A DNA stretch of 64,000 nucleotides from Escherichia coli O157:H7 (GCF_013167455.1 NZ_CP038328.1); one strand, 5' to 3'; counted from the stretch's first letter, positions 2,217 to 33,710 are shown. Notes: generated by a model not told the origin, from the sequence alone. A program made the numbers and translations.

Positions 2217-2528
2217 TACTTATCCATCGGTCGAGGGAAGAATTCCACCTCAGAGACTCAAAAATCGTTTAAATGATGTGGAAGCGATCGTCAATATCAC
2301 CTGTAACGATAGGCTTTCTCATATGCACACCACAGTGTTCAGGAGACACGGAAAGGTACCAGGCGGCCTGCTAACGAGTGGTTTCTTCACTAATTAGGAC
2401 GTAAAATCGGTAACGGCTGGAAATCATTCAATACTCACACTATCGAAAGTACACCAGCCAACCGCGATACGTCCCTGCATACGACGTACCGCAGTTCTCT
2501 TTACGATTTATAGCTGTACTGGTGAATT

Positions 2529-2858
2529 ATGAGCAATCTGAATCCATGCATGACGTGTGGTGCCTGTTGTGCATTTTTCCGCGTCTCTTTCTACTGGGCC
2601 GAAGCCGACGATGCTGGCGGCACTATTCCCGCCAGGCTCACTGAACAAATATCCCCTTTTCACCGATGCATGAGCGGAACTAATCAGAAAAACCCCCGAT
2701 GTATTGCCCTTGCAGGAACCCCGGGCAAAAATGCCTGCTGCACGATATATAAAAATCGATCGTCCACATGCAGAGAATTCGCCATGTCTGGTGAGAACGG
2801 AGTCGTCAATGAGGCTTGCAATCGTGCAAGGGCTAAATACGGGCTGACACCGTTATAA
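2529..2858 (+). CDS. ykgJ: YkgJ-like Cys-rich zinc/iron-chelating domain protein
   Basis: 109 aa with N-terminal CxxCxxCC motif ([11 protein letters not shown]); conserved position between ecp and yagU. Confidence 0.6.
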
Positions 2859-3105
2859 ATATACAATAATTATTTGCACTGCCCCGCCAGCTGTAATAGC
2901 GGGGCTTCGTTTTTCAGGGGTAACAAACCCCGATACTTCTTCTATTTGCCAGCAACAATGCCTCTCTTCTGTAGCGTTCTTCGGATCTACATCATCCTGA
3001 AGTAGCGCGATATACTCACTGACTATCTGAATCAGAATATAAAAAGCAATGTTTTTAACCTATAAAAATGGCGCTGTATTTGCGCCATTTTTATCATTCA
3101 ATGCA

Positions 3106-7975: not shown

Positions 7976-7984
7976 GGAGGAACA

Positions 7985-8941: not shown

Positions 8942-9119
8942 TCCTTGCGGCCGGGCGTGGAAAGCGCTTTCTCACCTCCGGGGGAAATACCATAAATTAA
9001 GAGAAAAATTTGCAGTAGCCGTTTTAGAAAATCACCTAAATCGTTTAAAAGAGCGCCCTACCCATAGTGGTTGCTCATCGCCTTGTGTAACTTTTTCAGC
9101 AACGCGCGCCCTCGCCGGA

Positions 9120-16138: not shown

Positions 16139-17095
16139 GTGACTAGTTATTCAAACTTTTCCAATCAAATAAAAGAAACCATCAATAATAAATTCGATCA
16201 TGAAATTCATGATTGGGACATTATAAAAAACTCAATCACAACTTTAATAAATAAAAATATCCATGGTGCAGGTAGAAATATCGTTGATTTTATAGATTTA
16301 GGTAACTGGGATTTTATTTCAAACTTTTCCTTTGATGACTCTACAAGAAGACTTGAATTAGAGTGGCACCCCAATGATAAATTCCATATATATATTGAGT
16401 CCGTTGTGTTTGTCGAGTTTAATGACACTATATATGCTTTCTTAAAGGGATACTATCACAATCAGTTATCTCTAAATAGAATATATAATACAAAATGCTC
16501 TTCATGTTCATTTGAAAACTCAGGTTCTTATATGGTAGACGTTTATAGAACGGTTAAAAGAGTAAATGAGACAATCCAGACCCCAAATATAAATTGCTAT
16601 ACTACATGTATTTTAACAAGGCCCGCAAATGGTCATGTTACATCTACAGGCTTCTCACGAAACCTCATGGATGCGATAAATATTTCATTAGCAGAGCACA
16701 AAATAGCCTCTTTACATAATGAAGTCATGAGTATTGAGGAATATGATCGTGATTCTTTACAAGAGAAAGGAAATACTGCCAGGAGATATTTAGAATATAT
16801 TCTCATGCTTGTTAATATTCGTATAATGCATTTAAACAACGTTCAATACCAAGAGCAAATGCTAGGTAGTTTAGTTTCTGTTATTGAGGCTCTGGACTAT
16901 GAACCATTAATGAAAAATGATGTTGAAATTACAAAGGACATCCTTAATGCTTGCAGCCACCACGGGGGGGTTAGAATTGAAAAGAAAGATGTAATTTTTT
17001 CTTTGGAAGTTATTGAAAACTTAATTAAAGCCATAAAGAAAACCGACATAAATAAATTACAACTCGATGGGATGTTTAAATCAATTCAAAAATAA
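16139..17095 (+). CDS. Hypothetical protein, very AT-rich orphan cargo gene inside the satellite island
   Basis: 318-aa ORF with GTG start, no recognisable motif, Asn/Ile/Lys-rich; lies between the distal att repeat and the primase 3' end. Confidence 0.45.
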   Translation: MTSYSNFSNQIKETINNKFDHEIHDWDIIKNSITTLINKNIHGAGRNIVDFIDLGNWDFISNFSFDDSTRRLELEWHPNDKFHIYIESVVFVEFNDTIYAFLKGYYHNQLSLNRIYNTKCSSCSFENSGSYMVDVYRTVKRVNETIQTPNINCYTTCILTRPANGHVTSTGFSRNLMDAINISLAEHKIASLHNEVMSIEEYDRDSLQEKGNTARRYLEYILMLVNIRIMHLNNVQYQEQMLGSLVSVIEALDYEPLMKNDVEITKDILNACSHHGGVRIEKKDVIFSLEVIENLIKAIKKTDINKLQLDGMFKSIQK

Positions 17096-17227: not shown

Positions 17228-19618
17228 TTATTTCGCTGCAAACTCATCGCATTTTGGCAACCAGTCAGCATTGCTTTCCTCTCTTAGGGCCAGATTAGTC
17301 TGCATTCCTTGATTGGTCCGTCGTTTCTCATACTGCAGCCCATATTCCTTGAGCATTAACGGTAGCCCCTTGCCAAACATGGTCAGACTGAGCGTATTTT
17401 TATAGCCGTTAGCCTCCATGTAGACCAGATAGGCATGGTAGAGGTAAGTTCGAGGCTGACGTGGAACAATATTAGCGTTCCCCATAAACATGCCCGTGGT
17501 GTCAGGTAGGACCTCAAGGTAGCCGCAAAAATCAAAAGCTGAATCAGCATCACGTTTGATGGTGAGCGCTTCATCGGAGTTCTGCTGTGACTGAAGCAAT
17601 GTCCTGGCACTCATTGGGTCGCTGAAACGCTGCATAAGCTGGCGAACAATCACCGCTAGCTCACTGGCAATTTTCTCTTTGAGCTGGGTATCGCGTTCCT
17701 CCGGGGCTATCTGGTCGGGGAAATGCAGGATCACCCTTCGGCGTGAAACTCCACCACTACGATCAGTGAAGCGCATCGGATTATTGTTCACAGCCAGGAT
17801 GACCGCCGGGATGTGGGTTGAATAGGCGTTCTGATATTTGGGATCAACGGATACCGCATCGCCGCCAGTGATGGCTTTTAGTCCGGCCCCGTCACCGCTC
17901 CACTTTTCCTGGTCGGGAAGTCGAATCAGTGAAAAACCTATTAACGCAGCTCGTTCTCTTGGCGACTCAAGCATTTCAATGGTTGCCGAGGTCGCGTTAT
18001 CTTCACCCGCCAGCATGGTTGCTATTTCAGCAAGAATACTCTTTCCACTTCCGCCAGGGCCAGTGACCTCCAGAAACAGCTGCCAGTCATAACGGTTAGC
18101 CAGCACCATAAACAATGCAGCCAGAATAATGTCCCGTTTTTCAGGATTAAAACCTGCGGCACGATCCAGCCAGCGCCAGAATGCCGGGGCATGGGTTTCC
18201 AGTGACTCACCGTCAACGGGCTGCGTGTAATCCACCTCGCACAGCGTACGTAACCAGTGCTTCTTATCGTGCGGGCTGAACAATCCTGTCCGGGTATCGA
18301 GCACACCGTTGCGAAATCCGATAAGTTGCCGCGCCGGATTCTGCTGTTGCGGAACGATCAGTTTGAGGGTTTCCACGAGAGACGCAATTTTCGCGGATGA
18401 AAAAGGTGCGTCGAGGCGCTGAAACAGCGCAGCGACATCACGGGCAAAATCGGCGTAATAGATAACTTTCCAGGCCCCCGCCTCATAGCGTGAAAGGAGC
18501 TGCCCGTTCGGGTCTACTGCCAGTGAATTTTTATAGTGATCCACTACCCTCTGCGCTTTTTCGCTGACGCTCAGCGCGGTAAATTCAGCTTCGCTCATTG
18601 TGTCGAAGGGGCTGGCAACAGCTGGTTTTATTACTTCATGAATTGCATGCCGGGTGGCTTCTTCGCCGTTTTGCGTGAATGCATCGTTCCAGTCACCAAA
18701 CACAGGCGGGAGCGCCATTGTGCAATTGCAGGCCCCGGTAACAGCTGCGCCCCTTGTTTGCCCCGCACCGTTGAGATCGCGGTCAGCAGCAATAATTATC
18801 TGGTGCGTTGGGTACTCACTGCAGGCAATGCTCGCCAGGGAAAGGAAATTGACGGACGAAAAGGCCACCATGACAGCATCGCCAGTCAGATAGTTGATAG
18901 TAAGTGCGGTGGCATATCCTTCCGCTATCCAGAGCCGTTTGGCTGCTTTGGCAGTACCTTCAACCAGGTAAAAGGCATTCTTAACCTGACCGCCTTTAAG
19001 GAAGCATTTGCCCCCATTAGCGTTGATTAACTGCAGATTTACCAGCTCTCCATCTGCATACAATGGAACGACAAGATCTCCCGCGCGAAATGCCACACCA
19101 CCGACTTTATGCATAGCGGTTAATTCCCGGCAAGGCAGTGCAGGAAACCCTTTACTCGTCAGATAGGCATTGCCAGTGGTCTGGCGGGACTTATCAAACA
19201 AACGGGCAGCCAGCACTGCTGCAGCTTTTCTCCCGTCCTCTTTTTCAGGAGAACCAGATTCAAGCATTCCCTGAGATACTGGCAGCAGGTTTCCGATAAT
19301 GCCGTTTATTCTGTCTGCCGCTTCACTAATGCCTACATCCAGTACTTTACTTACAAGCGCCAGGCCATCACCTGCCCCGCACTGGTTACAGAACCACGTT
19401 CCCCGCCCTTCCTGGTCATCAAATCGAAAGCGGTCTTTCCCGGCACAGACCGGGCAGGGCTGGTGCCGATTTTTCAGTACATTTACGCCCAGCGCAGGTA
19501 AAATTCTTGACCAGTGACCCCGAGCTGCTTTCTCAGCCTGGCTAACTTTCATTCCTGACATTGTGCGGCCCTCCTTAGTGCAGCGCTGGTTTGTTGAGGT
19601 GACGGGAACAAAGTTCAT
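17228..19618 (-). CDS. P4 alpha-like primase/helicase (N-terminal start uncertain)
   Basis: Zinc-binding [14 protein letters not shown]...CNQCG motif, primase/Toprim region and P-loop ([11 protein letters not shown]) in a roughly 780-aa protein. Confidence 0.85.
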
Positions 19619-21863: not shown

Positions 21864-22616
21864 ATGACAATCCCAGAACAGAACAATAACCCGATCGTTG
21901 AAATTTCTATCCCTGTTTCGACGCAACAGGCGCTTGAGAAAGTGAATGCCACCAAATCTGCATGGCTTGAAGCACGTCGTCAGCAAAAAGCGGCAGCGGA
22001 TAATATTGCGACAATCCGCCAGCGCCGCGCTGAAATGGAAGCCACGACGAACGCCCTGAATGAGGAGTGGCGCACGCTATTTCGTGAAAGTCAGGGCGTA
22101 GTCTCAAAGGAAATGAAAAAACTGCGCACGGAAATTGCGCTGGGACGAGAAACGCTTGAGGATTTTGATGAGCTGCTGGCGGCTCAGGAAAGCGAAAATG
22201 CACTTTTGCCGCAGGAGGCTGCGGAATTAGCCGGAAAGTATATCCACGCGCACGACACCCTTGTGGGTATTCGCGCAAAACAAATCTGGGAAGATTTTAT
22301 GCAGTCGCATGGAAAAGCACTAATCCAGACACTAAGCCTGCTCAAATCAACAATGGGCAGGGAAGCCAGCGCAGTTGTCGGTGTGGTGCATTCAGTTAAT
22401 GACCCGGACACACTGCTGAAAGATTTTATTCATAAACATATCACCAGACCGGCTCTGACTAACGATGCGATGCCCGAACAGGACCCCGTGTTTAAACTGG
22501 CGGGAGTTGCCCCGGATTATGCGGCCCGTCTGGATTTCAGTAATAAACTCTCTCCAGCAGCTATGCATAAAATGAAGGTTCGTCAGGAACGTGCTGAGAA
22601 GGAGAAAGCAGTATGA
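21864..22616 (+). CDS. P4 Sid-like (capsid size determination) or Psu-family helical protein
   Basis: 250-aa strongly alpha-helical protein, first gene of the rightward satellite operon; size matches Sid. Confidence 0.4.
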   Translation: MTIPEQNNNPIVEISIPVSTQQALEKVNATKSAWLEARRQQKAAADNIATIRQRRAEMEATTNALNEEWRTLFRESQGVVSKEMKKLRTEIALGRETLEDFDELLAAQESENALLPQEAAELAGKYIHAHDTLVGIRAKQIWEDFMQSHGKALIQTLSLLKSTMGREASAVVGVVHSVNDPDTLLKDFIHKHITRPALTNDAMPEQDPVFKLAGVAPDYAARLDFSNKLSPAAMHKMKVRQERAEKEKAV

Positions 22617-23164
22617 TGGCCCGAGTCACTCCAGACCAAGCGCTTATCAGTTTTAGAAATGCCCGTATTCTGTGGGCTGGACATAGTGAGAGCCGAAAAG
22701 CCGTTGAACAACAGATAGAATCACTCCTCACTGCCATGGAAAAACCAGCAGATTATGCTCGACAGCTCGAATTACAGCGGGAACATCTGGATGTGCTGAA
22801 ATGGCAAATTAACTGTGCTGCGCGCGAATGCATTTACTCGCAGCATCAACTGATGGAGGCCTGCACAGAAGACGCTCTCAGCAATTTTATGCAGGCGAAT
22901 GGAGCAGCCCTGACATCTGCACTGGCTCCGTTCCTGAAGGGGCGCGGAGGGGTTGACGTTGCGTCCCGTATATTACGCAATGCTCTGGTTCGCCAGCTGG
23001 CAATAACACCGCCTGAAATTGCCGGGGATTATCGTATGATTCTGGATGAATCCGGTGTGATGCCTGACCCCATGATGGTTCGTGATTGCCAGAGCTCTTA
23101 CACCCCTGCACAACAACTGCGCTTTCAGCAACGTCTGGATTACATTAACGGCATGCAGGAGTAA
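22613..23164 (+). CDS. P4 Psu-like (polarity suppression) protein
   Basis: 183-aa helical protein translationally coupled to preceding gene; size and position match Psu. Confidence 0.4.
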   Translation: MMARVTPDQALISFRNARILWAGHSESRKAVEQQIESLLTAMEKPADYARQLELQREHLDVLKWQINCAARECIYSQHQLMEACTEDALSNFMQANGAALTSALAPFLKGRGGVDVASRILRNALVRQLAITPPEIAGDYRMILDESGVMPDPMMVRDCQSSYTPAQQLRFQQRLDYINGMQE

Positions 23165-23169
23165 TATTA

Positions 23170-23442
23170 ATGGCACTTAAATGTCCCGAATGCGGTACGA
23201 CGGCACACGCCAGAACCTCCGCCTATGAAGCACCATCGGTTAAACGCTCATGGTATCAGTGCCAGAATCTTGAATGTTCCTACACATTTACCGCACTGGA
23301 AAGTGTGGATACGATAATCATGAAGCCCCGGCGCAATGAACAGGAATCAGAGAAAGCACAAATGCCGGAAAAACAACAGCAAACTCTCAATCGCTATGGC
23401 TCCGCGTCAAAGCTGTCAAGCCGTCAGCAAATTCCTGTCTGA
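23170..23442 (+). CDS. Ogr/Delta-family zinc-finger late transcription activator
   Basis: CPECG...AHARTS...YQCQNLECSYTF matches the Ogr/Delta C4 zinc finger. Confidence 0.8.
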   Translation: MALKCPECGTTAHARTSAYEAPSVKRSWYQCQNLECSYTFTALESVDTIIMKPRRNEQESEKAQMPEKQQQTLNRYGSASKLSSRQQIPV

Positions 23443-23489: not shown

Positions 23490-23851
23490 ACGCCTTTTCC
23501 CTGGCTGGCCTGAGAGCGCATGAGTGCATGTCTATAGCGCATGAAAACGCATGATTCTCATGCACCATTTTTGACGCGAAAGCCCTTGTGTGGTGGCTTC
23601 TGAGACGATTTGCGGAATGCATGAAAACCAGTCTGTTAAGCGAAGCGAGCAGGCGTGGGGGGCTGCGCGCGCTAAGGGGTTAGATTATAAAATATCAAAC
23701 GCCGGTGAGATCCATTATTGTGGAACCACCCGAAGGAAGTGTAGAGGCGAAAGTACCCAAAATAATTTTGCAAATTATTTAGAAATGAACTGAGCGCTCG
23801 AAACGAAATATAATTTCGAGCACCCCAATTAGCAGTTATATTTTTAATGTA

Positions 23852-24418
23852 TTAAACAGGATAAAAACCAGAGCTTCCATTCTTATTTAAGTTATGGATT
23901 TTATTTGCATCATTAATTTTTATTTGGAACGTCGGACCTTTATTCTCAAGAATTACAATCTGGAAATTATAGTCCCTTTTGATTAATGCGTGATAAAATG
24001 AATCACTGAGACTGACGCTATTAACATCCGATAGAGAACCCCCTCTATCTTTATCAAAGTGCGTCACTAATGGACTATCAAGCACAACAAATCCAATGAA
24101 TGGATTCCCTTTTCTTGATAAAAATTCCGCAAAGCAAATGGTAAATATAGCATGCATTACTGCACGGGTACCTTTACCAAACATTCCTCGGCGTTTCCCA
24201 TTGATATTAAAGTCATATGTATCTTCGTCAAATCGCACTTTGTTATCTTTAGAATTTTCAAAATTTATATCATTCAAAAAGTCTTGCATCGCTATTTCTA
24301 TATCATACAAATCAGCTACTGTTAAGGAGTCAAAGTCCTCGGCGGAGTATTTAAGTTCGTCAACATCATCTTCTTTATCTTGTAATGAAGATAGAATGCT
24401 ATGTTTTGTGTGATCCAT
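23852..24418 (-). CDS. Cargo ORF F: C-terminal ABC/SMC-like ATPase half (signature-like motif + Walker B-like)
   Basis: GKGTRAVMHAIFTICFAEFL followed by FIGFVVLDSPLVTHFD resembles ABC signature/Walker B/D-loop; start overlaps stop of ORF E (TAATG). Confidence 0.5.
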   Translation of the reverse strand: MDHTKHSILSSLQDKEDDVDELKYSAEDFDSLTVADLYDIEIAMQDFLNDINFENSKDNKVRFDEDTYDFNINGKRRGMFGKGTRAVMHAIFTICFAEFLSRKGNPFIGFVVLDSPLVTHFDKDRGGSLSDVNSVSLSDSFYHALIKRDYNFQIVILENKGPTFQIKINDANKIHNLNKNGSSGFYPV

Positions 24419-25008
24419 TAAAAGATTGTCTTTATATTCATAAAGTGATTCAAGAGATGAATGTATTGTTTTATATTTTTATCTTCTAACGTCTTAAAAT
24501 CACTTTTTTCTGATTGATAAATTTCATTAACATCATTTTTTCTTAACATAATTAATTCATGTTCGCGAACATTAGATCCGATTGATTCAATTAATCCTTT
24601 CAGCTGGCTTTTGATTTTCAATTTTTCTGCATTACACGACAAAAAACAATCATCATATGATATTTCATTTTCTTTTTTTTGCGGTGTATTACAGAACTCA
24701 CAATAAATATCTGCAAAATTATTTAAATAGAAATTCGCCTGTGATACAACATCTATTCTTTGTAGATCTATAAAGTATTGGTCTTTAAGAAGACTAAATC
24801 TTTCAATGAGTAATGATAAGTATTTTTCCCTGTCACTGATTGAATATAATTCATCACTTAACTCTTTTAATAATTGCTTCTTATCATCAAGTGCATCAAC
24901 AATACCTTTCAATATATCTTTCGATGATTCAATATCTTGCTCTACTTTCTCAAGTTCTCTTGAAACAATGACTTGATCATATTCAGGATAAATTAATTGC
25001 GCTTTCAA
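24418..25008 (-). CDS. Cargo ORF E: coiled-coil segment, likely middle part of the same ATPase
   Basis: 196 aa, K/E/L/D-rich helical composition; only TTG start; same frame as ORF D, separated by one TAA. Confidence 0.45.
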   Translation of the reverse strand: MKAQLIYPEYDQVIVSRELEKVEQDIESSKDILKGIVDALDDKKQLLKELSDELYSISDREKYLSLLIERFSLLKDQYFIDLQRIDVVSQANFYLNNFADIYCEFCNTPQKKENEISYDDCFLSCNAEKLKIKSQLKGLIESIGSNVREHELIMLRKNDVNEIYQSEKSDFKTLEDKNIKQYIHLLNHFMNIKTIF

Positions 25009-25038
25009 TTCCTCATAAATATTTGCAATTTGATTTTT

Positions 25039-25698
25039 TTAAAAATATCTTGCTTTTTTATTTGGTTTTTCTGCTAAGGAGTTAGTATCATCTCTCTGAG
25101 TTAAAAGGAATTTAAATTCAGACTTTCTTTTTGTCTCCTCGCTAGGAATATCAGAAAGAATTAACGACTTCTCAGTTAACACTCTTAATTCATCAATACA
25201 AAAAAATTCAAAAACATTATTAAGATTAAATTTATGAAGAGTATTACTTAAGTTTGTTCTTACTTTAGCCTCTTTGAAATTCAACCTACCATAAAAGTAT
25301 GATGAAAAACTCTTTTTAGACGAAGCACTTTTGGAAAAAACCATCAACAGATTAGCTTCACTAACATTTTCAATGCTCGAATCATATAATCTGTAATGGG
25401 CGCTATCCTGAAGAGACCTCTCAATTGTCATTACCCTACCTTGAAAATTAAATTCCAGATAGGCTAAATCATAACCTTGAGCATGATCGATATCTTTATT
25501 TTTTAGTTTTTCACTCCCTAATAAATATCGAATCAAATAATATATGTATGTTTTTCCAGAGTCAGAACCACCATATAAAATAGTCAATTTAGAACCAAAT
25601 TCAATTATAGCATCTAATTTATTGAATCCGGTTACCTTTATTTTTCTGAACGTAAAAAAATTGTCATTCATAATTAAATTCCATATCATATTTGCCAA
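25039..25698 (-). CDS. Cargo ORF D: N-terminal ABC/SMC-like ATPase head (Walker A)
   Basis: FRKIKVTGFNKLDAIIEFGSKLTILYGGSDSGKTYIYYL: SMC/AAA_15-like N-terminal strand plus Walker A GxxxxGKT. Confidence 0.55.
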   Translation of the reverse strand: MANMIWNLIMNDNFFTFRKIKVTGFNKLDAIIEFGSKLTILYGGSDSGKTYIYYLIRYLLGSEKLKNKDIDHAQGYDLAYLEFNFQGRVMTIERSLQDSAHYRLYDSSIENVSEANLLMVFSKSASSKKSFSSYFYGRLNFKEAKVRTNLSNTLHKFNLNNVFEFFCIDELRVLTEKSLILSDIPSEETKRKSEFKFLLTQRDDTNSLAEKPNKKARYF

Positions 25699-26137
25699 TT
25701 TTATTTTTTATAATTGATTGCAACTGCTCATCAGGAATATCACTATATAACTTAACCACCAAATTTATATTATGCTCCATCTGCGCAACATATTCATTAT
25801 GTAGAGAATTTGTAAATGCATATGTTTTTTCAGAAGCTTTATATACAAAACCACGATGTGTATAAATTTTTGAGGCTAGTTCATAGCCTTGCAACAAAGC
25901 CAATGATTCTAAAACAATCTCTCGTTTTAGGGCTAACTGAGCATCTCTACGGGGTATTGGAGGATGAAGACTAATCTCTTCAGGTAAAAAATCCTTAAGA
26001 TTTACTAAAATAAAATCAAAACAAATAAGCCGTTCAAGGCTTAATGAAGAAGGATAAATAGCGACGAGCACTTTCGCCATTCGACATGCCACTTCTAAAC
26101 TTGAATTATAAATTCTAACCATTATCTCACCGTCCAA
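25664..26137 (-). CDS. Cargo ORF C: hypothetical protein
   Basis: 157-aa ORF, AT-rich, overlaps neighbours by 16 and 35 nt; no recognisable motif. Confidence 0.4.
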   Translation of the reverse strand: MDGEIMVRIYNSSLEVACRMAKVLVAIYPSSLSLERLICFDFILVNLKDFLPEEISLHPPIPRRDAQLALKREIVLESLALLQGYELASKIYTHRGFVYKASEKTYAFTNSLHNEYVAQMEHNINLVVKLYSDIPDEQLQSIIKNKIGKYDMEFNYE

Positions 26138-26739
26138 ATTACTTCACCATCATTAACCAAATGATGGCATATTCCTTTTTTATCATTTGCTTCACATATT
26201 TTTGATAGTACTGAATGTGCAATTGGTGTCAGAACAGCCTGCTTCAAGACTGCATTACACCTAATAAATGCATAATTATGGTCTTCATAAAAGACGGGTT
26301 CAATTGAAGATGAAATGTAACATTTCAATGCTTTGAATACATCATCTTTAAATACTTCGCGGACAAAAACCTCAAGCGAAGATGCAAAATAAAAATCATT
26401 TCTACTATTATTAAAGTGTCGTCTGTATGGATCATCAAGCTCTAAGAAAGAACTATAAGTTTTATTTCCATGCTCTGAATAGGCTTGAAGCAGTGCATTA
26501 ACATATACAGACTCTTTTTTTGAATTGTATGTTGGAATTTCATTTGGAGGGATTCTCACGACATACAGCTCGTTAAAGTACTTAAAATAAAGGTGTGTAT
26601 TTGCAATATCATTTAAAATCAATGATAAGGGTAGAGAGTAAAAAATACTAAAATCAAAATCCTCAATATATTTTTTTATTTCATCATCTAATGGAATATC
26701 AATCTTTTTAGTTATTTTTTTGAAATTGCTGAATCCCAT
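26122..26739 (-). CDS. Cargo ORF B: hypothetical protein (possibly C-terminal part of a frameshifted gene with ORF A)
   Basis: 205-aa ORF overlapping ORF A by 28 nt across an A7 homopolymer. Confidence 0.4.
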   Translation of the reverse strand: MGFSNFKKITKKIDIPLDDEIKKYIEDFDFSIFYSLPLSLILNDIANTHLYFKYFNELYVVRIPPNEIPTYNSKKESVYVNALLQAYSEHGNKTYSSFLELDDPYRRHFNNSRNDFYFASSLEVFVREVFKDDVFKALKCYISSSIEPVFYEDHNYAFIRCNAVLKQAVLTPIAHSVLSKICEANDKKGICHHLVNDGEVIWTVR

Positions 26740-27017
26740 GAATCAAGGACTGCTTTTTTAAGCTCGTTTTTATTTTTCAATAAATTAGAAAATGTAGTAG
26801 ATAAATCATAGGGTGCCACAAAAAAGTACTTCTGAGGGATGGGATAATCACCATTCAGAGTAAAATAGATAAGTTTTCCAAACTCAACTACAACATCAGA
26901 GAACCCTAAACTTTTTTTGTACAGTTTGCATTGATAATTATCCCAAGAATAACCTTCTACGTTAGGATCCGATTTATATCCAACAACGTCTCTACCTTTA
27001 TCTCCAGCTCCTCCCAA
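26712..27017 (-). CDS. Cargo ORF A: Mrr-cat-like PD-(D/E)xK nuclease motif protein (no ATG start; possibly disrupted)
   Basis: GGAGDKGRDVVGY ... YQCKLYKK resembles the Mrr catalytic motifs (GDGGIDG ... QxK); frame stays open upstream to ATG GGA TGA TGA at 27087-27098. Confidence 0.4.
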   Translation of the reverse strand: MGGAGDKGRDVVGYKSDPNVEGYSWDNYQCKLYKKSLGFSDVVVEFGKLIYFTLNGDYPIPQKYFFVAPYDLSTTFSNLLKNKNELKKAVLDSWDSAISKK

Positions 27018-27130
27018 ACGTTCGCTCCACGGGTAATCATCTGATTTACAGACAATAAGCCAATCATGGACAAATACCTCCCATGTTCATCATCCCATGT
27101 CAATATTTCCGAAAGTGGTTGAGACACAAA

Positions 27131-28312
27131 TTAACTCCTTTTTAGTCTTTCAAATATCAAATTACTGTACCAGTCCATCATAGACTTCCTTCCACTAAAA
27201 TATTGAGCATGGTTATAAGTCCCCCTAATAGAATTTTTATCTACATGAGCCAACTGGATTTCAATCCAAGCACTCTCAAAACCTTGCTCATGCAGGATTG
27301 TAGAAAGGGTATGACGAAAACCATGTCCAGTGACTTTTCCTCCATACCCAATACGCTTAATGGCTTGATTTATACTCGCTTCGCTCATTGGCCTATTCGG
27401 ATCGTTCCGCCCTGGAAAAACATAACGATAGTTCCCTGTCATGATCTTGAGTTCATTGAGTAAATCTACCGCTTGAGATGATAAGGGCACAAGATGTGGC
27501 CTACGCATTTTCATCCTTTCAGCAGGAATTTCCCAAATAGCGTTATCCAGATCAAATTCTTGCCATAATGCCGCGCGTAATTCGATGGTTCTCACACCCG
27601 TAATCATCAGTAATTTCGTGGCTATCTGGACAAGCTTACTCCCGGAGTAACCCTCTAAGGCACGTAGAAAATCAGGTATCTCATCAGCTTTTAGGAATGG
27701 GAAATGATTGGATTGGTGTACTTCGAGAGCGCTGGAGAGATCAGCCGCAGGATTGTACTCCGCCCTACCCGTTGCAATTGCGTAGCGAAACACTTCGGAG
27801 CAACGCTGCCGCACTTTGCGCATTTTCTCCAACGCACCACGTTTCTCAATTTTACGCAGAACGTTCAGCAGCTCTAGCGGTTTAATCTCTCCCACAGGCC
27901 TTGTTCCGACATAAGGAAAAATGTCGTTCTTAAACGCTTCCATGATGTCTGATGCATATCCCGCCGACCATTTAGCAGATTTAAGTTGATGCCACTCTCT
28001 GGCTATCTTTTCGAAGGCGTTCTCTGACTCTGTTTGCATAGCTAGCTTTTGCTCTTTTCGAACCTCACTAGGGTTCTTTCCTTCTGCCACAAGTTTTCGA
28101 GCTTCATCACGACGGGAACGAGCATCGGCAAGGGTGATCGTTGGGTAAACACCAAGCGAGATCATTTTGGGTTTGCCGGCATAGCGATAGCGGAACCGCC
28201 AACTCTTGCTTCCATTAGGTTCTATAAGTAATGACAACCCTAGCCCATCTCCAAATGTATAGGCTTTAGCTTCAGGCTTAGCGCGGCGAATCTGCATATC
28301 GTTTAAAGGCAT
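27131..28312 (-). CDS. int: P4-type tyrosine integrase
   Basis: N-terminal P4-integrase-like region (AKAYTFGDGLGLSLLIEPNGSKSWRFRYRYAGK); C-terminal catalytic region with RxxHGFRHT..Y residues; adjacent to tRNA-derived att. Confidence 0.85.
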   Translation of the reverse strand: MPLNDMQIRRAKPEAKAYTFGDGLGLSLLIEPNGSKSWRFRYRYAGKPKMISLGVYPTITLADARSRRDEARKLVAEGKNPSEVRKEQKLAMQTESENAFEKIAREWHQLKSAKWSAGYASDIMEAFKNDIFPYVGTRPVGEIKPLELLNVLRKIEKRGALEKMRKVRQRCSEVFRYAIATGRAEYNPAADLSSALEVHQSNHFPFLKADEIPDFLRALEGYSGSKLVQIATKLLMITGVRTIELRAALWQEFDLDNAIWEIPAERMKMRRPHLVPLSSQAVDLLNELKIMTGNYRYVFPGRNDPNRPMSEASINQAIKRIGYGGKVTGHGFRHTLSTILHEQGFESAWIEIQLAHVDKNSIRGTYNHAQYFSGRKSMMDWYSNLIFERLKRS

Positions 28313-28474
28313 GTGTATAGGAATCCAGACCGAACAGGAACATATACACAATCCTATACACATTCAGTACCGGATTCTACTGGATGGTTACGGACTACTA
28401 TGGACTTAAAAGAATAAAAAATGTTATAAATCAGAGATTTTATGGACTAATACGGACGTTTGAGGAAGTTGAGA

Positions 28475-28520
28475 TGGTGCCGATAATAGGAGTCGAACCT
28501 ACGACCTTCGCATTACGAAT
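28475..28520 (-). repeat. 46-nt 3' fragment of tRNA-Thr (thrW-like): integrase-proximal att of the P4-like island, not an intact tRNA
   Basis: Reverse complement ATTCGTAATGCGAAGGTCGTAGGTTCGACTCCTATTATCGGCACCA is the anticodon-to-CCA part of tRNA-Thr(CGU) as recalled; 5' half absent. Confidence 0.7.
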
Positions 28521-28559: not shown

Positions 28560-29273
28560 ACACTGCGCTCACACGTCCCACCACATCAAAACATGTAAAG
28601 CCTTGCAAGCCATTGCGAGGCCTTATGTGTCTCAGTTTTGTCCCACCTTGTATTACGACTTGCATAGCCAATGAAGATAAACGTGACGACAAACGGCGCA
28701 GCAGTCTTCTTTTCTTTCACGACTTCTCCAGCATGCATACCTTTCTGCCATGACTGAAGTGAATGCCTGTTATGAGCGAGGATTGGCCCAGATGAATCGC
28801 CCTGGACTGTTGCGATCGTGAAGCCATAGACTGGGCCGCAAGCACGGGAGGTTACGATAAAGCGACAGTGCAGGATGTCATGTTAGGAGCGATAGAAAAA
28901 CGCTTTGGCGATAAAGTACCGGAACAGTCCATCCAGTGGCTGACAGATAACGGTTCAGCGTATAGAGCGCATGAAACACGGCAGTTCGCCAGAGAGTTGA
29001 ATCTGGAGCCCTGCACAACGGCAATCAGCAGTCCTCAGAGTAATGGAATTGCAGAAAGGTTCGTGAAAACGATGAAGGAAGACTATATCGCGTTCATGCC
29101 GAAACCGAATGTAAGAACGGCATTGCATAATCTTGCAGTGGCGATCGAACATTACAATGAAAACCATCCGCACAGTGCGTTGGGTTATCGCTCTCCGCGA
29201 GAATATCGACGTCAGCGGGTAACGTTAACTTAAGATACACCCCCTGTCTGGAAATAAGGGGGCAAGAACAATG
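28560..29273 (+). mobile_element. 5'-truncated IS2-like (IS3 family) element with terminal inverted repeat
   Basis: OrfB C-terminus ([21 protein letters not shown]...[14 protein letters not shown]) followed by IS2-like end TGTCTGGAAATAAGGGGGCAA; left part degenerate, starts next to tRNA fragment. Confidence 0.55.
28868..29233 (+). pseudogene. IS3-family transposase OrfB C-terminal fragment
   Basis: 121-aa ORF covering only the end of the DDE integrase core; upstream frames broken. Confidence 0.6.
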
Positions 29274-29274
29274 A

Positions 29275-30027
29275 TCAGATTCCCTGGTGAGTAAGAATTT
29301 TACTTTCTGAACTCCTCTGAGAGTATTGACTTGGAGAAACACCAAAATAACGTCTAAATACATAAGTAAAGTATGAGACACTGGCATAACCACAGACCTT
29401 AGCTACTTTACTAATAGGATAACAACGAGTGCTGAGTAAATATTCAGCCATTTGCATCCTCTCATCAAGTATGATCTTACTGAATGATACCCCCTCTTCT
29501 TTCAATTTCCTCTTTAGTAAACTTTCGCTGAGATATAATCTTGATGATATATCCTTAAGACGCCATGGTGCAGATAAATCCGTATGAATAATCGTTTTAA
29601 CTTTAGCCCCTGTGCTTTTCAAACATCCAAACAGAAATACTCCAAATTGTTTTTCAGAAGAAAATGCAGAGAGACATGTAAAAGCAATAGACTCATCAAA
29701 AATTTCTATGTATTCAGCACAGTGATTAGCCCAACTAATTAATCCTTTAATTAAACTGAAGTCAGCAAAGTTTATTTTTAAATAAGATGGATATTCCCTA
29801 CAATCAGAAATATCCCTTAAGTTATTAGCTTTCAAATAGCGACTAATAAACTCAGCGCCAAAATCCGCCACTATCACTCTTTCAGGATATGTCAGGAAAA
29901 AATCTCTAGAGCTAGAGTCGACAAGTACAGATGAACCTCTCTCCAGAAACACACTCTCTTTTCCGAAATAAACATCAAAGGACTCCAAAATCAATATAAC
30001 TGAACATGTAGTTGCCATATCATCCAC
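29275..30027 (-). CDS. AraC-family transcriptional regulator (AT-rich, horizontally acquired)
   Basis: C-terminal dual HTH region (ISKVAKVCGYASVSYFTYVFRRYFGVSPSQY); 250 aa. Confidence 0.7.
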   Translation of the reverse strand: MDDMATTCSVILILESFDVYFGKESVFLERGSSVLVDSSSRDFFLTYPERVIVADFGAEFISRYLKANNLRDISDCREYPSYLKINFADFSLIKGLISWANHCAEYIEIFDESIAFTCLSAFSSEKQFGVFLFGCLKSTGAKVKTIIHTDLSAPWRLKDISSRLYLSESLLKRKLKEEGVSFSKIILDERMQMAEYLLSTRCYPISKVAKVCGYASVSYFTYVFRRYFGVSPSQYSQRSSESKILTHQGI

Positions 30028-30746: not shown

Positions 30747-31616
<870 letters not shown>

Positions 31617-31676
31617 GTCTTTAAGTGATAAGCATAAACCGCAGCACGATCTTCTTGCATACGACGTGCTACGGTT

Positions 31677-32231
31677 TCATTTATCTCCGACCGGAAACTT
31701 CTTATACAGTGTCGATATACCAACATCATAGATGATCGCCACCTTTTGGCGAGGAACGCCTGATGCAATTAATCGCCCGGCCTGCGCCCATTGTTCTGGT
31801 GTAAGTTTGGGACGACGTCCACCAATTCGTCCCTGTGCGCGAGCTGCTTCCAGTCCAGCTTTTGTTCGTTCAACAATCAGTTCACGCTCCATTTCAGCCA
31901 GGGCACCCATCACATGAAAGAAAAAGCGCCCCATTGGGGTACTGGTATCAATTGAATCCGTCAGACTACGAAAGTTGATGCCTCGTTCGCGCAACTCCTC
32001 CACCAGCACGACAAGATGCCGCATACTGCGCCCCAGTCGGTCCAGTTTCCAGACCACCAGCGTGTCACCTGCCGATAATGTCCTGAGCAGCTTTTTCAGT
32101 CCTGGTCTGTCGGACTTTGTACCGCTTATCTTGTCTTCAAAAATCAGCTCACATCCTGCACACTCCAGCGCATTACGCTGTAATTCCGTATTCTGGTTAT
32201 TTGTTGATACGCGGACATAGCCAATAAGCAT
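31677..32231 (-). CDS. Serine recombinase DNA invertase (Pin/Gin/Hin family)
   Basis: MLIGYVRVSTNNQNTELQ N-terminus with catalytic serine, resolvase fold, C-terminal HTH; adjacent to inverted-repeat-flanked tail-fibre segment. Confidence 0.85.
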   Translation of the reverse strand: MLIGYVRVSTNNQNTELQRNALECAGCELIFEDKISGTKSDRPGLKKLLRTLSAGDTLVVWKLDRLGRSMRHLVVLVEELRERGINFRSLTDSIDTSTPMGRFFFHVMGALAEMERELIVERTKAGLEAARAQGRIGGRRPKLTPEQWAQAGRLIASGVPRQKVAIIYDVGISTLYKKFPVGDK

Positions 32232-32258
32232 GAGCATTCCCCTGAGTAAAAACCGGGG

Positions 32259-32672
32259 ATGATGCCAGTTAGCCATAATCTCTGCATTTTCTTAAACGTT
32301 GGTTTGGGAGAAGCGGCAAAACGGGATGTGGGGACAGGGGAAAATCAGATACCGGACATGGCCTCTTTTGCCAGTGGTGATGGATGGATGAAATTACCCA
32401 ACGGGAAAATCCTGCAATATGGTCGTGGTGCGGTTACGCCGACATTATCGACGCAAACAATGAGAATTACATTCAGCATCCCTTTCTCCAAAAAAGCGGA
32501 CTGCGCCATGCTTACTCATTCTGGTGATGGCGGTGCGCCTTTAGGCGCTGGGCGAGGGTTCGTGATGACTGCAGAAGGCCCAACGTTAACCGGCTTTAAT
32601 TCTGCTTACAGAACGTCATCAACCAGCGACACGGTATCGATGAATTACAGTTGGTGGGCTGTTGGTGAGTAA
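32259..32672 (+). CDS. Alternative tail-fibre C-terminal variable cassette (silent orientation)
   Basis: ORF begins at the crossover site (…NVGLGEAAK…) and lacks its own N-terminal domain; followed by its own assembly chaperone. Confidence 0.5.
   Translation: MMPVSHNLCIFLNVGLGEAAKRDVGTGENQIPDMASFASGDGWMKLPNGKILQYGRGAVTPTLSTQTMRITFSIPFSKKADCAMLTHSGDGGAPLGAGRGFVMTAEGPTLTGFNSAYRTSSTSDTVSMNYSWWAVGE
32287..32312 (+). repeat. gix/pix-like recombination site (left inverted repeat of the invertible segment)
   Basis: TTTTCTTAAACGTTGGTTTGGGAGAA; its reverse complement matches 34178-34203 over the first 14 nt and about 20 of 26 overall. Confidence 0.6.
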
Positions 32673-32683
32673 TTTTATTCAGG

Positions 32684-33136
32684 GTGATTTATATGAATGA
32701 ATATGTTTATAGCGCAAGGCATAATGCTTTTTTCCCTGTGGATATGATTGATAAATATAAATCAGAGGGATGGGATTTATCAGACGCTAAGGAAGTAAAT
32801 CAAAATATTATCAGTGAGTTTATGGCTGAACCGCCACAAGGAAAAATCCGTATTGCCGGAGATGATGGGCTGCCTGCGTGGGCAGATATTCCTCCACCCA
32901 CGCATGAAGAACTTATTGAAATTACTGAATCAGAAAGACAGCTACTAATTAACCAGGCCAACGAATACATGAACAGTAAACAATGGCCCGGTAAAGCCGC
33001 TATTGGTCGTCTGAAAGGTGAGGAACTGGCGCAATATAATTTGTGGCTGGATTATCTGGATGCACTGGAGCTGGTTGATACCTCCAGTGCGCCAGATATT
33101 GAATGGCCTACGCCTCCGGCAGTTCAGGCCAGATGA
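32684..33136 (+). CDS. Tail fibre assembly protein (alternative cassette)
   Basis: 150 aa; conserved Tfa-like C-terminus (…DYLDALELVDTSSAPDIEWPTPP) shared with the convergent Tfa ORF. Confidence 0.6.
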   Translation: MIYMNEYVYSARHNAFFPVDMIDKYKSEGWDLSDAKEVNQNIISEFMAEPPQGKIRIAGDDGLPAWADIPPPTHEELIEITESERQLLINQANEYMNSKQWPGKAAIGRLKGEELAQYNLWLDYLDALELVDTSSAPDIEWPTPPAVQAR

Positions 33137-33710
33137 CATCCGGCGCGGTGCTGGTATCTGTTGCCGTCACCGCGTCAATGTAATCCAGCACAGCGTTAAG
33201 TCTGGTTGTTTCTGCCTGCGTCGGTTTACGTCCGGCCTGCAATTTCAGTTGAATCAGACTGATGGAAGCCATTGCTGCATCAATCAGTGACTGGCGCTGT
33301 GCTTCTGCCGCTTCTACTGCGGCACCGTGTTGTGCCTCAGTATCTGTCACCCATTTTTCACCATCCCATTTATCGAATGGCGTTAACGGGGCGATAGTGG
33401 TTGTATTTTCAGGATAATCACCCGGAGCTGTGATTTCTTTGGCGTCTCCCGTTTCGGTGTTATAGACGATTTCACCGCGATGGTCTGGCACATATTCCCA
33501 TGAGTTTAAATCCATCGAACGGCAGATAGCATAACCCGCCTTATGTATACCAGGTTCATCCAGACAGGAATATGCAGGGATACCGACACCAATGGCAAGA
33601 TATTCATTTGAAGTAGAAATATATTCCCGAGTTTTACCATCATAGTTATAGACGGTAATATTCCCCGCCTTCGTGGCAATAAGCTCGCTATTTAATACGG
33701 CGTTATCCAT
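33108..33710 (-). CDS. Tail fibre assembly protein (expressed cassette)
   Basis: 200 aa; C-terminus …LDYIDAVTATDTSTAPDVIWPELP, a paralogue of the opposite-strand Tfa. Confidence 0.65.
   Translation of the reverse strand: MDNAVLNSELIATKAGNITVYNYDGKTREYISTSNEYLAIGVGIPAYSCLDEPGIHKAGYAICRSMDLNSWEYVPDHRGEIVYNTETGDAKEITAPGDYPENTTTIAPLTPFDKWDGEKWVTDTEAQHGAAVEAAEAQRQSLIDAAMASISLIQLKLQAGRKPTQAETTRLNAVLDYIDAVTATDTSTAPDVIWPELPEA

What the first reader, a model, noticed from the sequence alone, without database searches (positions are those of the whole stretch)
23852..27098. AT-rich six-ORF cargo locus in the P4-like psu/delta-integrase hotspot: Mrr-like nuclease motif + two unknown proteins + split SMC/ABC-like ATPase (candidate novel or degraded anti-phage system)
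Seen in sequence: six co-oriented minus-strand ORFs fill the interval between ogr/delta and the integrase. ORF A carries GGAGDKGRDVVGY…YQCKLYKK, resembling the Mrr-cat PD-(D/E)xK motifs. ORF D has an SMC/AAA_15-like N-terminus with Walker A GGSDSGKT; ORF E is coiled-coil-like; ORF F has ABC signature-like GKGTRAVMHAIF and Walker B-like FVVLDSPLVTHFD. D+E+F therefore look like one roughly 600-aa SMC/ABC ATPase. ORFs B and C have no motif I can recognise. Established knowledge: P4-like satellites carry anti-phage systems at exactly this position; nuclease plus SMC-like ATPase (plus small protein) is the Lamassu-like architecture, and nuclease plus AAA_15 ATPase is Septu-like. Inference: this is a defence system, either a new arrangement or a decaying Lamassu/Septu-like relative. 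I cannot assign it to a family without profile searches.
Basis: partly seen in the sequence, partly recalled or inferred. Interest (0 to 1): 0.9.

Follow-up and report, generated by a model that had tools for sequence, protein, structure and literature searches.

The report
Decayed Lamassu defence operon in satellite
The six small ORFs are the broken pieces of an ordinary three-gene Lamassu anti-phage operon (lmuA-lmuC-lmuB) carried by a P4-like satellite prophage of E. coli O157:H7; the locus has been published as "Lamassu-var" and here it is a pseudogene array, not a new system.

Summary
Six co-oriented minus-strand ORFs (31% GC) lie between ogr/delta and the integrase of the P4-like prophage Sp2 of E. 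coli O157:H7. They are not six genes. Defence-system profiles and intact orthologues show one short (type II) Lamassu operon:
- ORF A + ORF B, plus a 14-codon head at 27127, make up lmuA (335 aa; Mrr-like nuclease plus CTD6).
- ORF C is lmuC (152 aa, intact).
- ORFs D + E + F make up lmuB (606 aa; Rad50/SMC-like ATPase with a CxxC apex).

Colinear, gap-free orthologues with all three genes intact exist in Proteus mirabilis (87-93% aa identity) and in P4-like satellites of Pantoea and Citrobacter. The window copy has four lesions: two 1-nt deletions in lmuA, and one nonsense codon plus one 1-nt deletion in lmuB. Two of them are shared by all 307-308 E. coli carriers, all of the O157:H7/O55:H7 lineage. 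Other strains add further frameshifts, a nonsense codon and an IS1203 insertion. Substitutions within the clade are 11 nonsynonymous to 1 synonymous. No genome has a repaired allele.

An O55:H7 allele of this locus was published as "Lamassu-var" (PMC11754643), with only a small-plaque phenotype. Verdict: an already known kind of system, inactivated here. Low interest.

The parts
26122..27127 (-). lmuA pseudogene: Mrr-like PD-(D/E)xK nuclease domain (about residues 1-135), linker, then CTD6 domain (residues 206-332). The ancestral product is 335 aa; here it is broken into three frames.
   Evidence: PADLOC LmuA PDLC03852 covers model positions 44-140 (ORF A, 1e-31) and 141-333 (ORF B, 4e-44). 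The reconstruction aligns without gaps to intact 335-aa orthologues at 93% and 87% identity. Pfam CTD6 scores 3.5e-29. D43, D47, Q66, C67, K68, E82 and K85 are invariant across 43 homologues. The AF2 model (pLDDT 92.8) best matches solved LmuA chains.
27083..27084 (-). Lesion 1 (window sublineage only): a 1-nt deletion in lmuA codon 15 (CAATGG to CATGG).
   Evidence: Window versus Sakai, DEC5B, CB9615, TB182A, Proteus and Pantoea. PGAP flags the CDS as 'frameshifted' in strain ECP19-598. Four genomes match the window's 3501-base query stretch base for base, against 3502 bases in the others.
26715..26721 (-). Lesion 2 (all E. coli carriers): a 1-nt deletion in a homopolymer (A7 on the coding strand, ancestrally A8) at lmuA codons 137-139. 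It separates the nuclease core from the rest of the protein.
   Evidence: DNA alignment with intact orthologues. The protein junction ...SAISKKI(S/T)KK... is restored by adding one A. No E. coli genome has the repaired run.
25664..26122 (-). lmuC (152 aa from the ATG at 26122): the ABC-3C 'middle component 2'. It is the only intact gene of the operon.
   Evidence: PADLOC LmuC PDLC03871 at 2.9e-36, full length. The 152-aa orthologues at the same position carry Pfam MC2 PF20288. PGAP names it 'ABC-three component system middle component 2'.
23852..25671 (-). lmuB pseudogene: Rad50/SMC-like ABC ATPase, ancestrally 606 aa. Its features are Walker A GGSDSGKT, a coiled coil with a CxxC apex, GKGTR, and Walker B VVLDS. 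Here it is in three pieces (ORFs D, E, F).
   Evidence: PADLOC LmuB PDLC03863 covers model positions 3-199, 231-412 and 428-608 of 610 (8e-50, 1.6e-21, 5e-37). The reconstruction is colinear with intact 606-aa P0001 (87%) and P0002 (75%). The AF2 model of P0001 best matches solved LmuB chains 9uxh_F, 9hqu and 9nyg, then Rad50/SMC.
25039..25041 (-). Lesion 3 (seen in O157:H7 alleles, absent from the three O55:H7 alleles examined): a nonsense mutation, TTA (Leu211) to TAA, in lmuB.
   Evidence: The O55:H7 strains and all intact orthologues have Leu at this codon.
24476..24480 (-). Lesion 4 (all E. coli carriers): a 1-nt deletion in a homopolymer (A5, ancestrally A6) at about lmuB codon 398, in the descending coiled-coil helix.
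   Evidence: No E. coli genome has the repaired run.
23792..23825 (-). Terminator-like hairpin (13 pairs) 27 nt after the lmuB stop codon; probable operon end.
   Evidence: This is a consensus scan only.
27131..28312 (-). Satellite integrase. Its stop codon lies 3 nt upstream of the lmuA start, as in the intact orthologous satellites.
22613..23442 (+). psu (22613-23164) and ogr/delta (23170-23442): the other border of the satellite's cargo hotspot.
   Evidence: Orthologous satellites carry Pfam Psu and Ogr_Delta at the same position.

Best explanation
The locus is a pseudogenised short (type II) Lamassu operon with an Mrr-like nuclease effector, in the order lmuA-lmuC-lmuB. It sits in the integrase-psu/delta cargo hotspot of the P4-like satellite prophage Sp2 of E. 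coli O157:H7.

**How the intact ancestor would work.** This is inferred from published structures of other short Lamassu systems, not tested here. Two LmuB protomers and LmuC hold the C-terminal domain of a monomeric LmuA, which keeps the nuclease silent. When LmuB senses DNA ends, LmuA is released. It oligomerises through its C-terminal domain and cuts DNA, aborting the infection.

**State in this window (shown).**
- lmuA is frameshifted at codon 15 and again at codons 137-139.
- lmuB has a stop at codon 211 and a frameshift at about codon 398.
- Only lmuC is intact.

**Consequence (inferred).** No full-length ATPase and no nuclease-CTD fusion can be made. The canonical sensor-sequestration-release mechanism therefore cannot operate, and the cassette is drifting neutrally.
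For: - All six ORFs hit LmuA, LmuC and LmuB profiles colinearly.
- Intact orthologous operons of 335 + 152 + 606 aa exist in Proteus mirabilis (L006) and in P4-like satellites at the same int-psu position (L007-L009 Pantoea, L012 Citrobacter). The reconstructed proteins align to them without gaps.
- LmuA carries Pfam CTD6, and 5 of 43 homologues hit Mrr_cat. The orthologous LmuC proteins carry MC2.
- Structure models best match solved Lamassu LmuA and LmuB chains.
- The Walker B motif hhhhDS and the CxxC apex fit the 'short Lamassu' description in PMC12663957.
- Decay is visible as two lesions shared by all E. coli copies, plus lineage-specific ones:
  - O157: TAA at 25040.
  - Window sublineage: deletion at 27083/84.
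  - CB9615 and TB182A: deletion near 24504-24509.
  - CB9615: insertion near 25199-25207, and CAA to TAA at 25032.
  - DEC5B: insertion near 24535-24542.
  - At least one strain, M1300706002 (two more hits carry the same annotation): IS1203 inside lmuB.
- The 12 substitutions within the clade are 2 nonsense, 9 missense and 1 synonymous.
- None of 307 genomes has either shared frameshift repaired.
- Sakai annotates lmuB (ECs_0293) as a pseudogene.
Against: - PMC11754643 cloned the O55:H7 TB182A allele. By my alignment it has three frameshifts but no nonsense codon. The authors saw smaller plaques for T2, T4, T6 and RB69, so some residual or fragment-borne activity cannot be excluded.
- lmuC is intact, and the catalytic and ATPase motifs are unmutated.
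- The cassette has not been deleted in any of the 300-odd genomes.
- The lmuA frameshift site is A AAA AAA followed by TAA, a sequence that could in principle allow low-level -1 slippage.
Confidence: 0.9

Rival explanations
1. The fragments form a functional 'split' Lamassu variant (the 'Lamassu-var' of the Domainator paper). Separately translated half-heads of LmuB reassemble, as engineered split Rad50 heads do. A free Mrr nuclease core and a free CTD6 protein act together with LmuC.
For: - PMC11754643 reports reduced plaque size of T-even phages with the TB182A allele.
- The shared lmuA frameshift falls just after the predicted nuclease core (helix 120-135).
- The stop of ORF E and the start of ORF F overlap (TAATG), which would allow re-initiation.
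- lmuC is intact.
Against: - At least seven further independent inactivating events occurred in a clade with at most 0.4% divergence, and substitutions are 11 nonsynonymous to 1 synonymous. That is not what a selected split system would show.
- The window allele also loses the LmuA N-terminus and truncates LmuB at codon 211.
- Published work shows that all three Lamassu components, the ATPase site and the effector are required (10.1101/2022.05.11.491447), and that nuclease activation needs CTD-mediated tetramerisation (10.1101/2025.03.14.643221).
- The published phenotype was plaque size only, visible only at the highest dilutions.
Confidence: 0.06
2. Expression is rescued or phase-varied by slippage at the homopolymer tracts (A7 in lmuA, A5 in lmuB). 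This would give a low dose or an on/off switch of a toxic abortive-infection system.
For: - Both shared lesions, and all but one of the lineage-specific indels, lie in A/T runs.
- The lmuA site reads A AAA AAA TAA, which is slippery-heptamer-like with an adjacent stop.
Against: - No genome among 307 carries an in-frame run at either site; the best match to a repaired query is 99.2%, that is one gap.
- There is no RNA structure 3' of the site (z = +1.4; 192 of 200 shuffles fold at least as well).
- Intact orthologues do not have the A8 run (AAT AAA ATA and AAG AAA ATA), so the tract is not a conserved feature.
- Slippage cannot rescue the TAA nonsense codon at 25040, nor the non-homopolymer deletion at 27083/84 in this window.
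Confidence: 0.03
3. It is a different or new nuclease-plus-ATPase system (Septu-, Gabija- or PARIS-like), or the breaks are sequencing errors.
For: Weak PADLOC hits of ORF D to GajA (1.9e-6), AriA (1.2e-5) and PtuA (1.7e-3).
Against: - Those hits cover only the shared P-loop N-terminus and are more than 40 orders of magnitude weaker than the LmuB hit.
- There is no HNH, helicase or Toprim partner.
- The breaks are identical in more than 300 independently assembled complete genomes, including the Sakai and EDL933 reference strains.
Confidence: 0.01

Closest known systems
'Lamassu-var' of E. coli O55:H7 TB182A (CP038295:4116517-4120474), Domainator paper, NAR 2024 (PMC11754643)
   Same: It is the same locus, at least 99.6% identical, in the same satellite between psu/delta and the integrase. 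Both ancestral frameshifts are shared. It was the most frequent cluster (259 of 910) in that paper's E. coli P4-like hotspot survey.
   Different: TB182A lacks the O157 nonsense codon and the window's codon-15 deletion, but has its own extra deletion near 24504-24509. The paper treats it as a new variant with '3 to 9 CDSs' and never mentions frameshifts, pseudogenes or the O157/O55 lineage. Here it is shown to be a broken canonical three-gene operon confined to one clonal lineage.
Short / type II Lamassu (V. cholerae DdmABC, Salmonella enterica LmuACB; PMC12663957, 10.1101/2025.03.14.643221, 10.1101/2025.06.23.660979)
   Same: The three-gene lmuA-lmuC-lmuB architecture. LmuB is a Rad50/SMC-like ATPase with a Walker B of the hhhhD[Q/S/T/E] type. 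LmuA is an N-terminal nuclease plus a C-terminal domain. These entries are the best structural matches.
   Different: The effector is Mrr-like rather than Cap4. LmuB has a CxxC apex, which the V. cholerae LmuB lacks. Sequence identity is only about 10-14% in the structural alignments, and sequence searches of the PDB find nothing. The window copy is inactivated.
Lamassu-Mrr of E. coli SE15 (Millman et al. 2022, 10.1101/2022.05.11.491447)
   Same: An experimentally validated Lamassu-family system in E. coli described as having an Mrr-family LmuA effector and acting by abortive infection.
   Different: It is not detectably similar at the DNA level. Two distant blastn searches of all complete E. 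coli genomes, one with the window locus and one with a 45%-identical Citrobacter orthologue, found only the O157/O55 locus. No direct protein comparison was made.
ABC-three component (ABC-3C) systems of Krishnan, Burroughs, Iyer and Aravind (Pfam CTD6 PF20282, MC2 PF20288)
   Same: LmuA carries CTD6 and the orthologous LmuC proteins carry MC2. PGAP names the ORFs 'ABC-three component system protein' and 'middle component 2'.
   Different: None in kind. ABC-3C is the earlier computational name for the same family.
Rad50/SbcC zinc-hook SMC-like ATPases
   Same: The fold of LmuB: split ABC head, antiparallel coiled coil, and an invariant CxxC at the apex.
   Different: LmuB is much shorter (606 aa), has no Mre11/SbcD partner, and has Ser instead of Glu after the Walker B Asp.

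Membership tests
Lamassu (short / type II) | LmuB: an SMC/Rad50-like ABC ATPase with Walker A, a long coiled coil, and a C-terminal half-head with signature-like and Walker B motifs | tested here: met
   PADLOC LmuB covers positions 3-608 of 610 across ORFs D, E and F. GGSDSGKT, CxxC, GKGxR and LDSPLVTH are invariant. The AF2 model has helices 233-319 and 339-438 between the two half-heads. Foldseek best hits are LmuB chains 9uxh_F (5.9e-14), 9hqu and 9nyg.
Lamassu (short / type II) | LmuA: an N-terminal effector domain fused to a conserved C-terminal (oligomerisation/sequestration) domain | tested here: met
   PADLOC LmuA covers positions 44-333 of 336 across ORFs A and B. Pfam CTD6 scores 3.5e-29. 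Foldseek best hits are LmuA chains 9nxx, 9ny1 and 9uxh_C.
Lamassu (short / type II) | LmuC: a small middle component encoded between lmuA and lmuB | tested here: met
   PADLOC LmuC at 2.9e-36, full length. The orthologues carry PF20288 MC2.
Lamassu (short / type II) | All component genes intact (a complete system) | tested here: not met
   There are four disabling lesions in the window: two in lmuA and two in lmuB. It is a member by descent, but a pseudogenised one.
Lamassu (short / type II) | Anti-phage or anti-plasmid activity that depends on the LmuB ATPase, the LmuA effector and LmuC | not testable with these tools
   The only data are a small-plaque phenotype of the O55:H7 allele in PMC11754643, without mutant controls.
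Mrr-like PD-(D/E)xK restriction endonuclease (LmuA effector type) | A D...(Q/E)xK catalytic motif on an alpha-beta-beta-beta-alpha-beta core; a match to Pfam Mrr_cat | tested here: inconclusive
   D47 and Q66-C67-K68 are invariant in 43 homologues. The fold matches MspJI, Cap4, Avs3 and FokI nuclease domains. The protein itself gives no Mrr_cat hit even at E<=10, and only 5 of 43 homologues hit at E<=0.001. The fold-level assignment is firm; the Mrr subfamily assignment rests on transitive homology.
Septu (PtuA/PtuB) | A PtuA ATPase paired with a PtuB HNH nuclease | tested here: not met
   PtuA scores only E 1.7e-3 on residues 16-62 of ORF D. There is no HNH protein, and the LmuB profiles win by more than 40 orders of magnitude.
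Gabija (GajA/GajB) | A GajA OLD-family ATPase-Toprim nuclease plus a GajB UvrD-like helicase | tested here: not met
   GajA hits (down to 1.9e-6) cover only the N-terminal P-loop region. There is no Toprim domain and no helicase.
P4-like satellite cargo hotspot | A variable cassette between the integrase and psu/delta of an element that also has sid, alpA, and a primase-helicase | tested here: met
   PGAP annotation of the window's source strain: primase-helicase 17228-19561, DUF5375, Icd-like, HTH, sid-like 21864-22616, psu, delta and integrase. Sakai annotates 'prophage Sp2, P4-like phage'. Orthologous satellites carry Pfam Psu, Ogr_Delta, Phage_AlpA, Phage_ASH and D5_N. PMC11754643 notes that Psu is only about 31% identical to P4 Psu.

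The most novel reading that the evidence does not exclude
The broken cassette is not fully dead. Fragments could retain a weak, non-canonical anti-T-even effect that explains the small plaques in PMC11754643 and the cassette's retention in every O157:H7/O55:H7 genome. Candidates are the standalone 138-aa Mrr nuclease core present in most O157/O55 strains, the intact LmuC, LmuB half-proteins, or rare slippage-derived full-length products.
Probability: 0.07. Interest if true: 0.4.

Novelty: already known. Interest (0 to 1): 0.15.

Why it matters
The value is mainly as a correction and a caution.

1. The 'most frequent P4-like hotspot system in E. coli' (259 of 910 hotspots in PMC11754643) matches, in size and source, a single clonal, pseudogenised Lamassu copy. 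Here it was found in 307-308 of 5,426 complete genomes, all in the O157:H7/O55:H7 lineage wherever the serotype is shown, and at least 99.6% identical. Its apparent abundance would then reflect oversampling of that lineage. Equating the 259 with this clade is my inference; I did not inspect the paper's hotspot list.
2. It is a clear in-situ example of a defence cassette decaying inside an otherwise intact-looking P4-like satellite. A 2026 preprint (10.64898/2026.02.27.708500) reports such cases to be rare, at under 1% of P4 pseudogenes.
3. Intact close orthologues from Proteus (87-93% aa identity) and Pantoea (75-87%) are now identified. They could be tested to learn what this Lamassu subtype (Mrr, CTD6, MC2) actually defends against.

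None of this opens a new mechanism.

Tried and rejected
- **Sequence searches of the PDB** with profiles of LmuA (43 sequences) and LmuB (5 sequences) found nothing meaningful. Only fold comparison linked them to solved Lamassu structures.
- **NCBIfam** had no family for any of the three proteins.
- **Pfam Mrr_cat** does not hit the protein directly.
- **Repaired or phase-ON alleles:** queries carrying A8 or A6 found none in 307 E. coli genomes.
- **A frameshift-stimulating RNA structure** after the A7-TAA site: none.
- **More distant intact relatives in complete E. coli genomes**, by distant blastn with the window locus and with the Citrobacter orthologue: only the same O157/O55 locus came back.
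- **The O157:H7 FRIK944 system** that Rousset et al. found inactive: it is a different two-gene cytidine-deaminase cargo, so it is irrelevant.
- **A tRNA attachment site** next to the integrase: ARAGORN found none in 10-32 kb.
- **Septu and Gabija readings** were rejected on profile scores and missing partner genes.
- **Sequencing error** was rejected because the lesions recur in hundreds of independent assemblies.


Full report
**Source and observation.** The window is E. coli O157:H7. Bases 23700-27200 are 100% identical to strain ECP19-598 and differ from Sakai and EDL933 by one base. Sakai annotates the surrounding element as 'prophage Sp2, P4-like phage'. The locus is 31% GC in a 49.5% GC window. 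It lies between ogr/delta (23170-23442, + strand) and the integrase (27131-28312, - strand), next to psu and a sid-like gene. Further along the element are an HTH regulator, an Icd-like gene, DUF5375 and a primase-helicase. The one correction is that the locus starts at the GTG at 27127, not at 27098.

**What the ORFs are.** Scanning the ORFs against PADLOC profiles gives strong hits that run colinearly along three models:

| ORF | Profile | Model positions | E-value |
|---|---|---|---|
| A | LmuA (PDLC03852) | 44-140 of 336 | 1e-31 |
| B | LmuA (PDLC03852) | 141-333 | 4e-44 |
| C | LmuC (PDLC03871) | full length | 2.5e-36 |
| D | LmuB (PDLC03863) | 3-199 of 610 | 8e-50 |
| E | LmuB (PDLC03863) | 231-412 | 1.6e-21 |
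| F | LmuB (PDLC03863) | 428-608 | 5e-37 |

Hits of ORF D to GajA, AriA and PtuA cover only the P-loop region and are more than 40 orders of magnitude weaker. The 'six-ORF locus' is therefore a three-gene lmuA-lmuC-lmuB Lamassu operon in pieces. Three-frame translation shows how the pieces connect:
- lmuA starts at the GTG at 27127, changes frame after 14 codons, and changes frame again at ...SAISKK.
- lmuB carries an in-frame TAA (...KKARYF*KNQIANIY...).
- lmuB then changes frame near ...LEDKNIK/TIHSSLE...

**Intact orthologues.** A database search with the reconstructed LmuB found full-length 606-aa proteins in Proteus mirabilis (P0001, 87% identity) and Pantoea alhagi (P0002, 75%). Their loci encode 335-aa LmuA (Pfam CTD6), 152-aa LmuC (Pfam MC2) and 606-aa LmuB in the same order.
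- In Pantoea and in two other assemblies, the operon sits in a P4-like satellite in exactly the window's position: int - lmuA - lmuC - lmuB - delta - psu - sid - alpA ... primase.
- A Citrobacter braakii satellite carries a 45%-identical version in the same slot.
- In Proteus the cassette lies in a different island next to smpB.

The reconstructed O157 LmuA and LmuB align to these proteins end to end without a single internal gap: 93% and 87% identity for LmuA, 87% and 75% for LmuB.

**Exact lesions.** An eight-sequence DNA alignment places them.

Shared by all five E. coli alleles examined; none of the 307 carrier genomes has either site repaired:
- A 1-nt deletion in the A-run at 26715-26721 (A7 where the ancestor had A8), at lmuA codons 137-139.
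- A 1-nt deletion in the A-run at 24476-24480 (A5 where the ancestor had A6), at about lmuB codon 398.

Seen in O157:H7 alleles, absent from the three O55:H7 alleles examined:
- TTA to TAA at 25039-25041, lmuB codon 211.

Only in the window's sublineage (four genomes match the query stretch exactly):
- A 1-nt deletion at 27083/84, lmuA codon 15.

In other strains:
- CB9615 and TB182A have a deletion near 24504-24509.
- CB9615 also has an insertion near 25199-25207 and a CAA to TAA change at 25032.
- DEC5B has an insertion near 24535-24542.
- M1300706002 has IS1203 inserted in lmuB, and two further hits carry the same annotation.

That makes at least nine independent disabling events in a clade whose copies differ by no more than 0.4%. 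The 12 base substitutions within the clade are 2 nonsense, 9 missense and 1 synonymous. This is the signature of relaxed or absent selection. Queries carrying the repaired homopolymers matched no genome better than with one gap, so there is no ON allele and no sign of phase variation. The RNA downstream of the A7-TAA site is less structured than its shuffles (z = +1.4), so nothing suggests programmed frameshifting.

**Family assignment.**
- *LmuA.* Pfam finds CTD6 (ABC-3C C-terminal domain 6) at residues 206-332 (3.5e-29). Among 43 full-length homologues, G42, D43, G45, D47, Q66, C67, K68, E82 and K85 are invariant. That is the D...QxK pattern of Mrr-type PD-(D/E)xK nucleases. Five of the 43 hit Pfam Mrr_cat at E<=0.001, but the E. 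coli protein itself does not. An AlphaFold model (pLDDT 92.8) best matches the solved LmuA chains 9nxx, 9ny1 and 9uxh, followed by the MspJI, Cap4, Avs3 and FokI nuclease domains.
- *LmuB.* Twenty homologues keep the Walker A motif GGSDSGKT, a CxxC pair plus a third Cys, GKGxR, and LDSPLVTH. The model shows two half-heads joined by helices 233-319 and 339-438, with the CxxC at the apex. It best matches the solved Lamassu LmuB chains 9uxh_F (5.9e-14), 9hqu, 9hqx, 9ux7 and 9nyg, then Rad50 and SMC heads.
- *Agreement with the literature.* PMC12663957 describes short Lamassu as having Walker B hhhhD[Q/S/T/E], zero to two CxxC hooks, and Mrr among its LmuA effector types. The present system (VVLDS, one CxxC, Mrr-like) fits that description.

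**Mechanism.** For the intact ancestor I infer the mechanism shown for other short Lamassu systems (10.1101/2025.03.14.643221; PMC12663957):
1. An LmuB dimer plus LmuC sequesters the C-terminal domain of monomeric LmuA.
2. Binding of DNA ends releases LmuA.
3. LmuA tetramerises through its C-terminal domain and cleaves DNA, aborting the infection.

Millman et al. showed that the ATPase site, the effector and lmuC are all required in the Lamassu-family systems they tested (10.1101/2022.05.11.491447). The window copy can make neither a full LmuB (stop at codon 211, before the coiled coil and the C-terminal half-head) nor an LmuA in which the nuclease is joined to CTD6. Its LmuA reading frame is also lost after 14 codons. 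The sequence shows the breaks directly. That the system is inactive is an inference, at about 0.9 confidence.

**Prior knowledge.** PGAP already names ORFs B and C 'ABC-three component system protein' and 'middle component 2'. The Domainator paper (PMC11754643) found this locus to be the most frequent cluster among E. coli P4-like hotspots: 259 of 910, '3 to 9 CDSs', with Psu about 31% identical to P4 Psu. It called the locus 'Lamassu-var' on the basis of PADLOC. The authors cloned CP038295:4116517-4120474 and saw only smaller plaques for T2, T4, T6 and RB69 at the highest dilutions. CP038295 is O55:H7 strain TB182A. Its allele carries the two founding frameshifts plus a third. The paper does not mention frameshifts, pseudogenes or the O157/O55 lineage.

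What this analysis adds is that 'Lamassu-var' is a frameshifted canonical three-gene Lamassu. It is confined to one clonal lineage: 307-308 of 5,426 complete E. coli genomes, all at least 99.6% identical. Intact orthologues exist elsewhere. A 2026 preprint reports that defence pseudogenes are rare in P4 hotspots, so this locus is a conspicuous exception.

**Verdict.** The 'novel arrangement' and Septu readings, and the high interest score, are not supported. The kind of system is already known and the copy is inactivated. The only residual uncertainty is whether the fragments retain a weak non-canonical activity, at about 0.07.

Noticed in passing
window 16139-17095 (+): An AT-rich (28-35% GC) 318-aa ORF of unknown function lies just beyond the satellite's primase-helicase gene. 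It has no PADLOC hit and no Pfam hit at E<=0.001. It could be a second cargo gene at the other end of the satellite.
   Followed up: partly
L005/L006 (Proteus mirabilis) 6543-9821: The closest intact copy of the cassette (LmuA 93%, LmuB 87% aa identity; 89% DNA identity) is not in a P4-like satellite. It lies in an island next to smpB, with its own integrase, a DUF927 protein and an rve transposase. The same Lamassu cassette has therefore moved between unrelated mobile elements and between genera.
   Followed up: partly
window 27131-28500: ARAGORN finds no tRNA gene next to the satellite integrase anywhere in 10-32 kb. The orthologous Pantoea-type satellites sit immediately after proB-proA. 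The attachment site of Sp2 in O157:H7 was not identified.
   Followed up: no
window 28799-30018: Directly outside the integrase lie a truncated IS integrase-core pseudogene (28799-29233) and an AT-rich AraC-family regulator (29275-30018, about 34% GC). This looks like another patch of horizontally acquired, partly decayed DNA.
   Followed up: no
window 30843-35174: A LEM-3-like GIY-YIG nuclease gene is followed by pinE, invertible tail-fibre and tail-fibre-assembly genes, and baseplate genes. This appears to be the start of a separate prophage or prophage remnant adjacent to the satellite.
   Followed up: no
L013 (E. coli O157:H7 M1300706002) 1790-3003: In this strain an IS1203 element with its programmed-frameshift transposase is inserted inside the lmuB N-terminal fragment. 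Two further hits, strains 6535WT and 6535NalR, carry the same annotation. This is a further independent hit on the already dead gene.
   Followed up: yes
window 24418-24420 and 26712-26739: The stop of ORF E overlaps the ATG of ORF F (TAATG), and ORFs A and B overlap by 28 nt. These overlaps mimic translational coupling, but they are by-products of the 1-nt deletions.
   Followed up: yes
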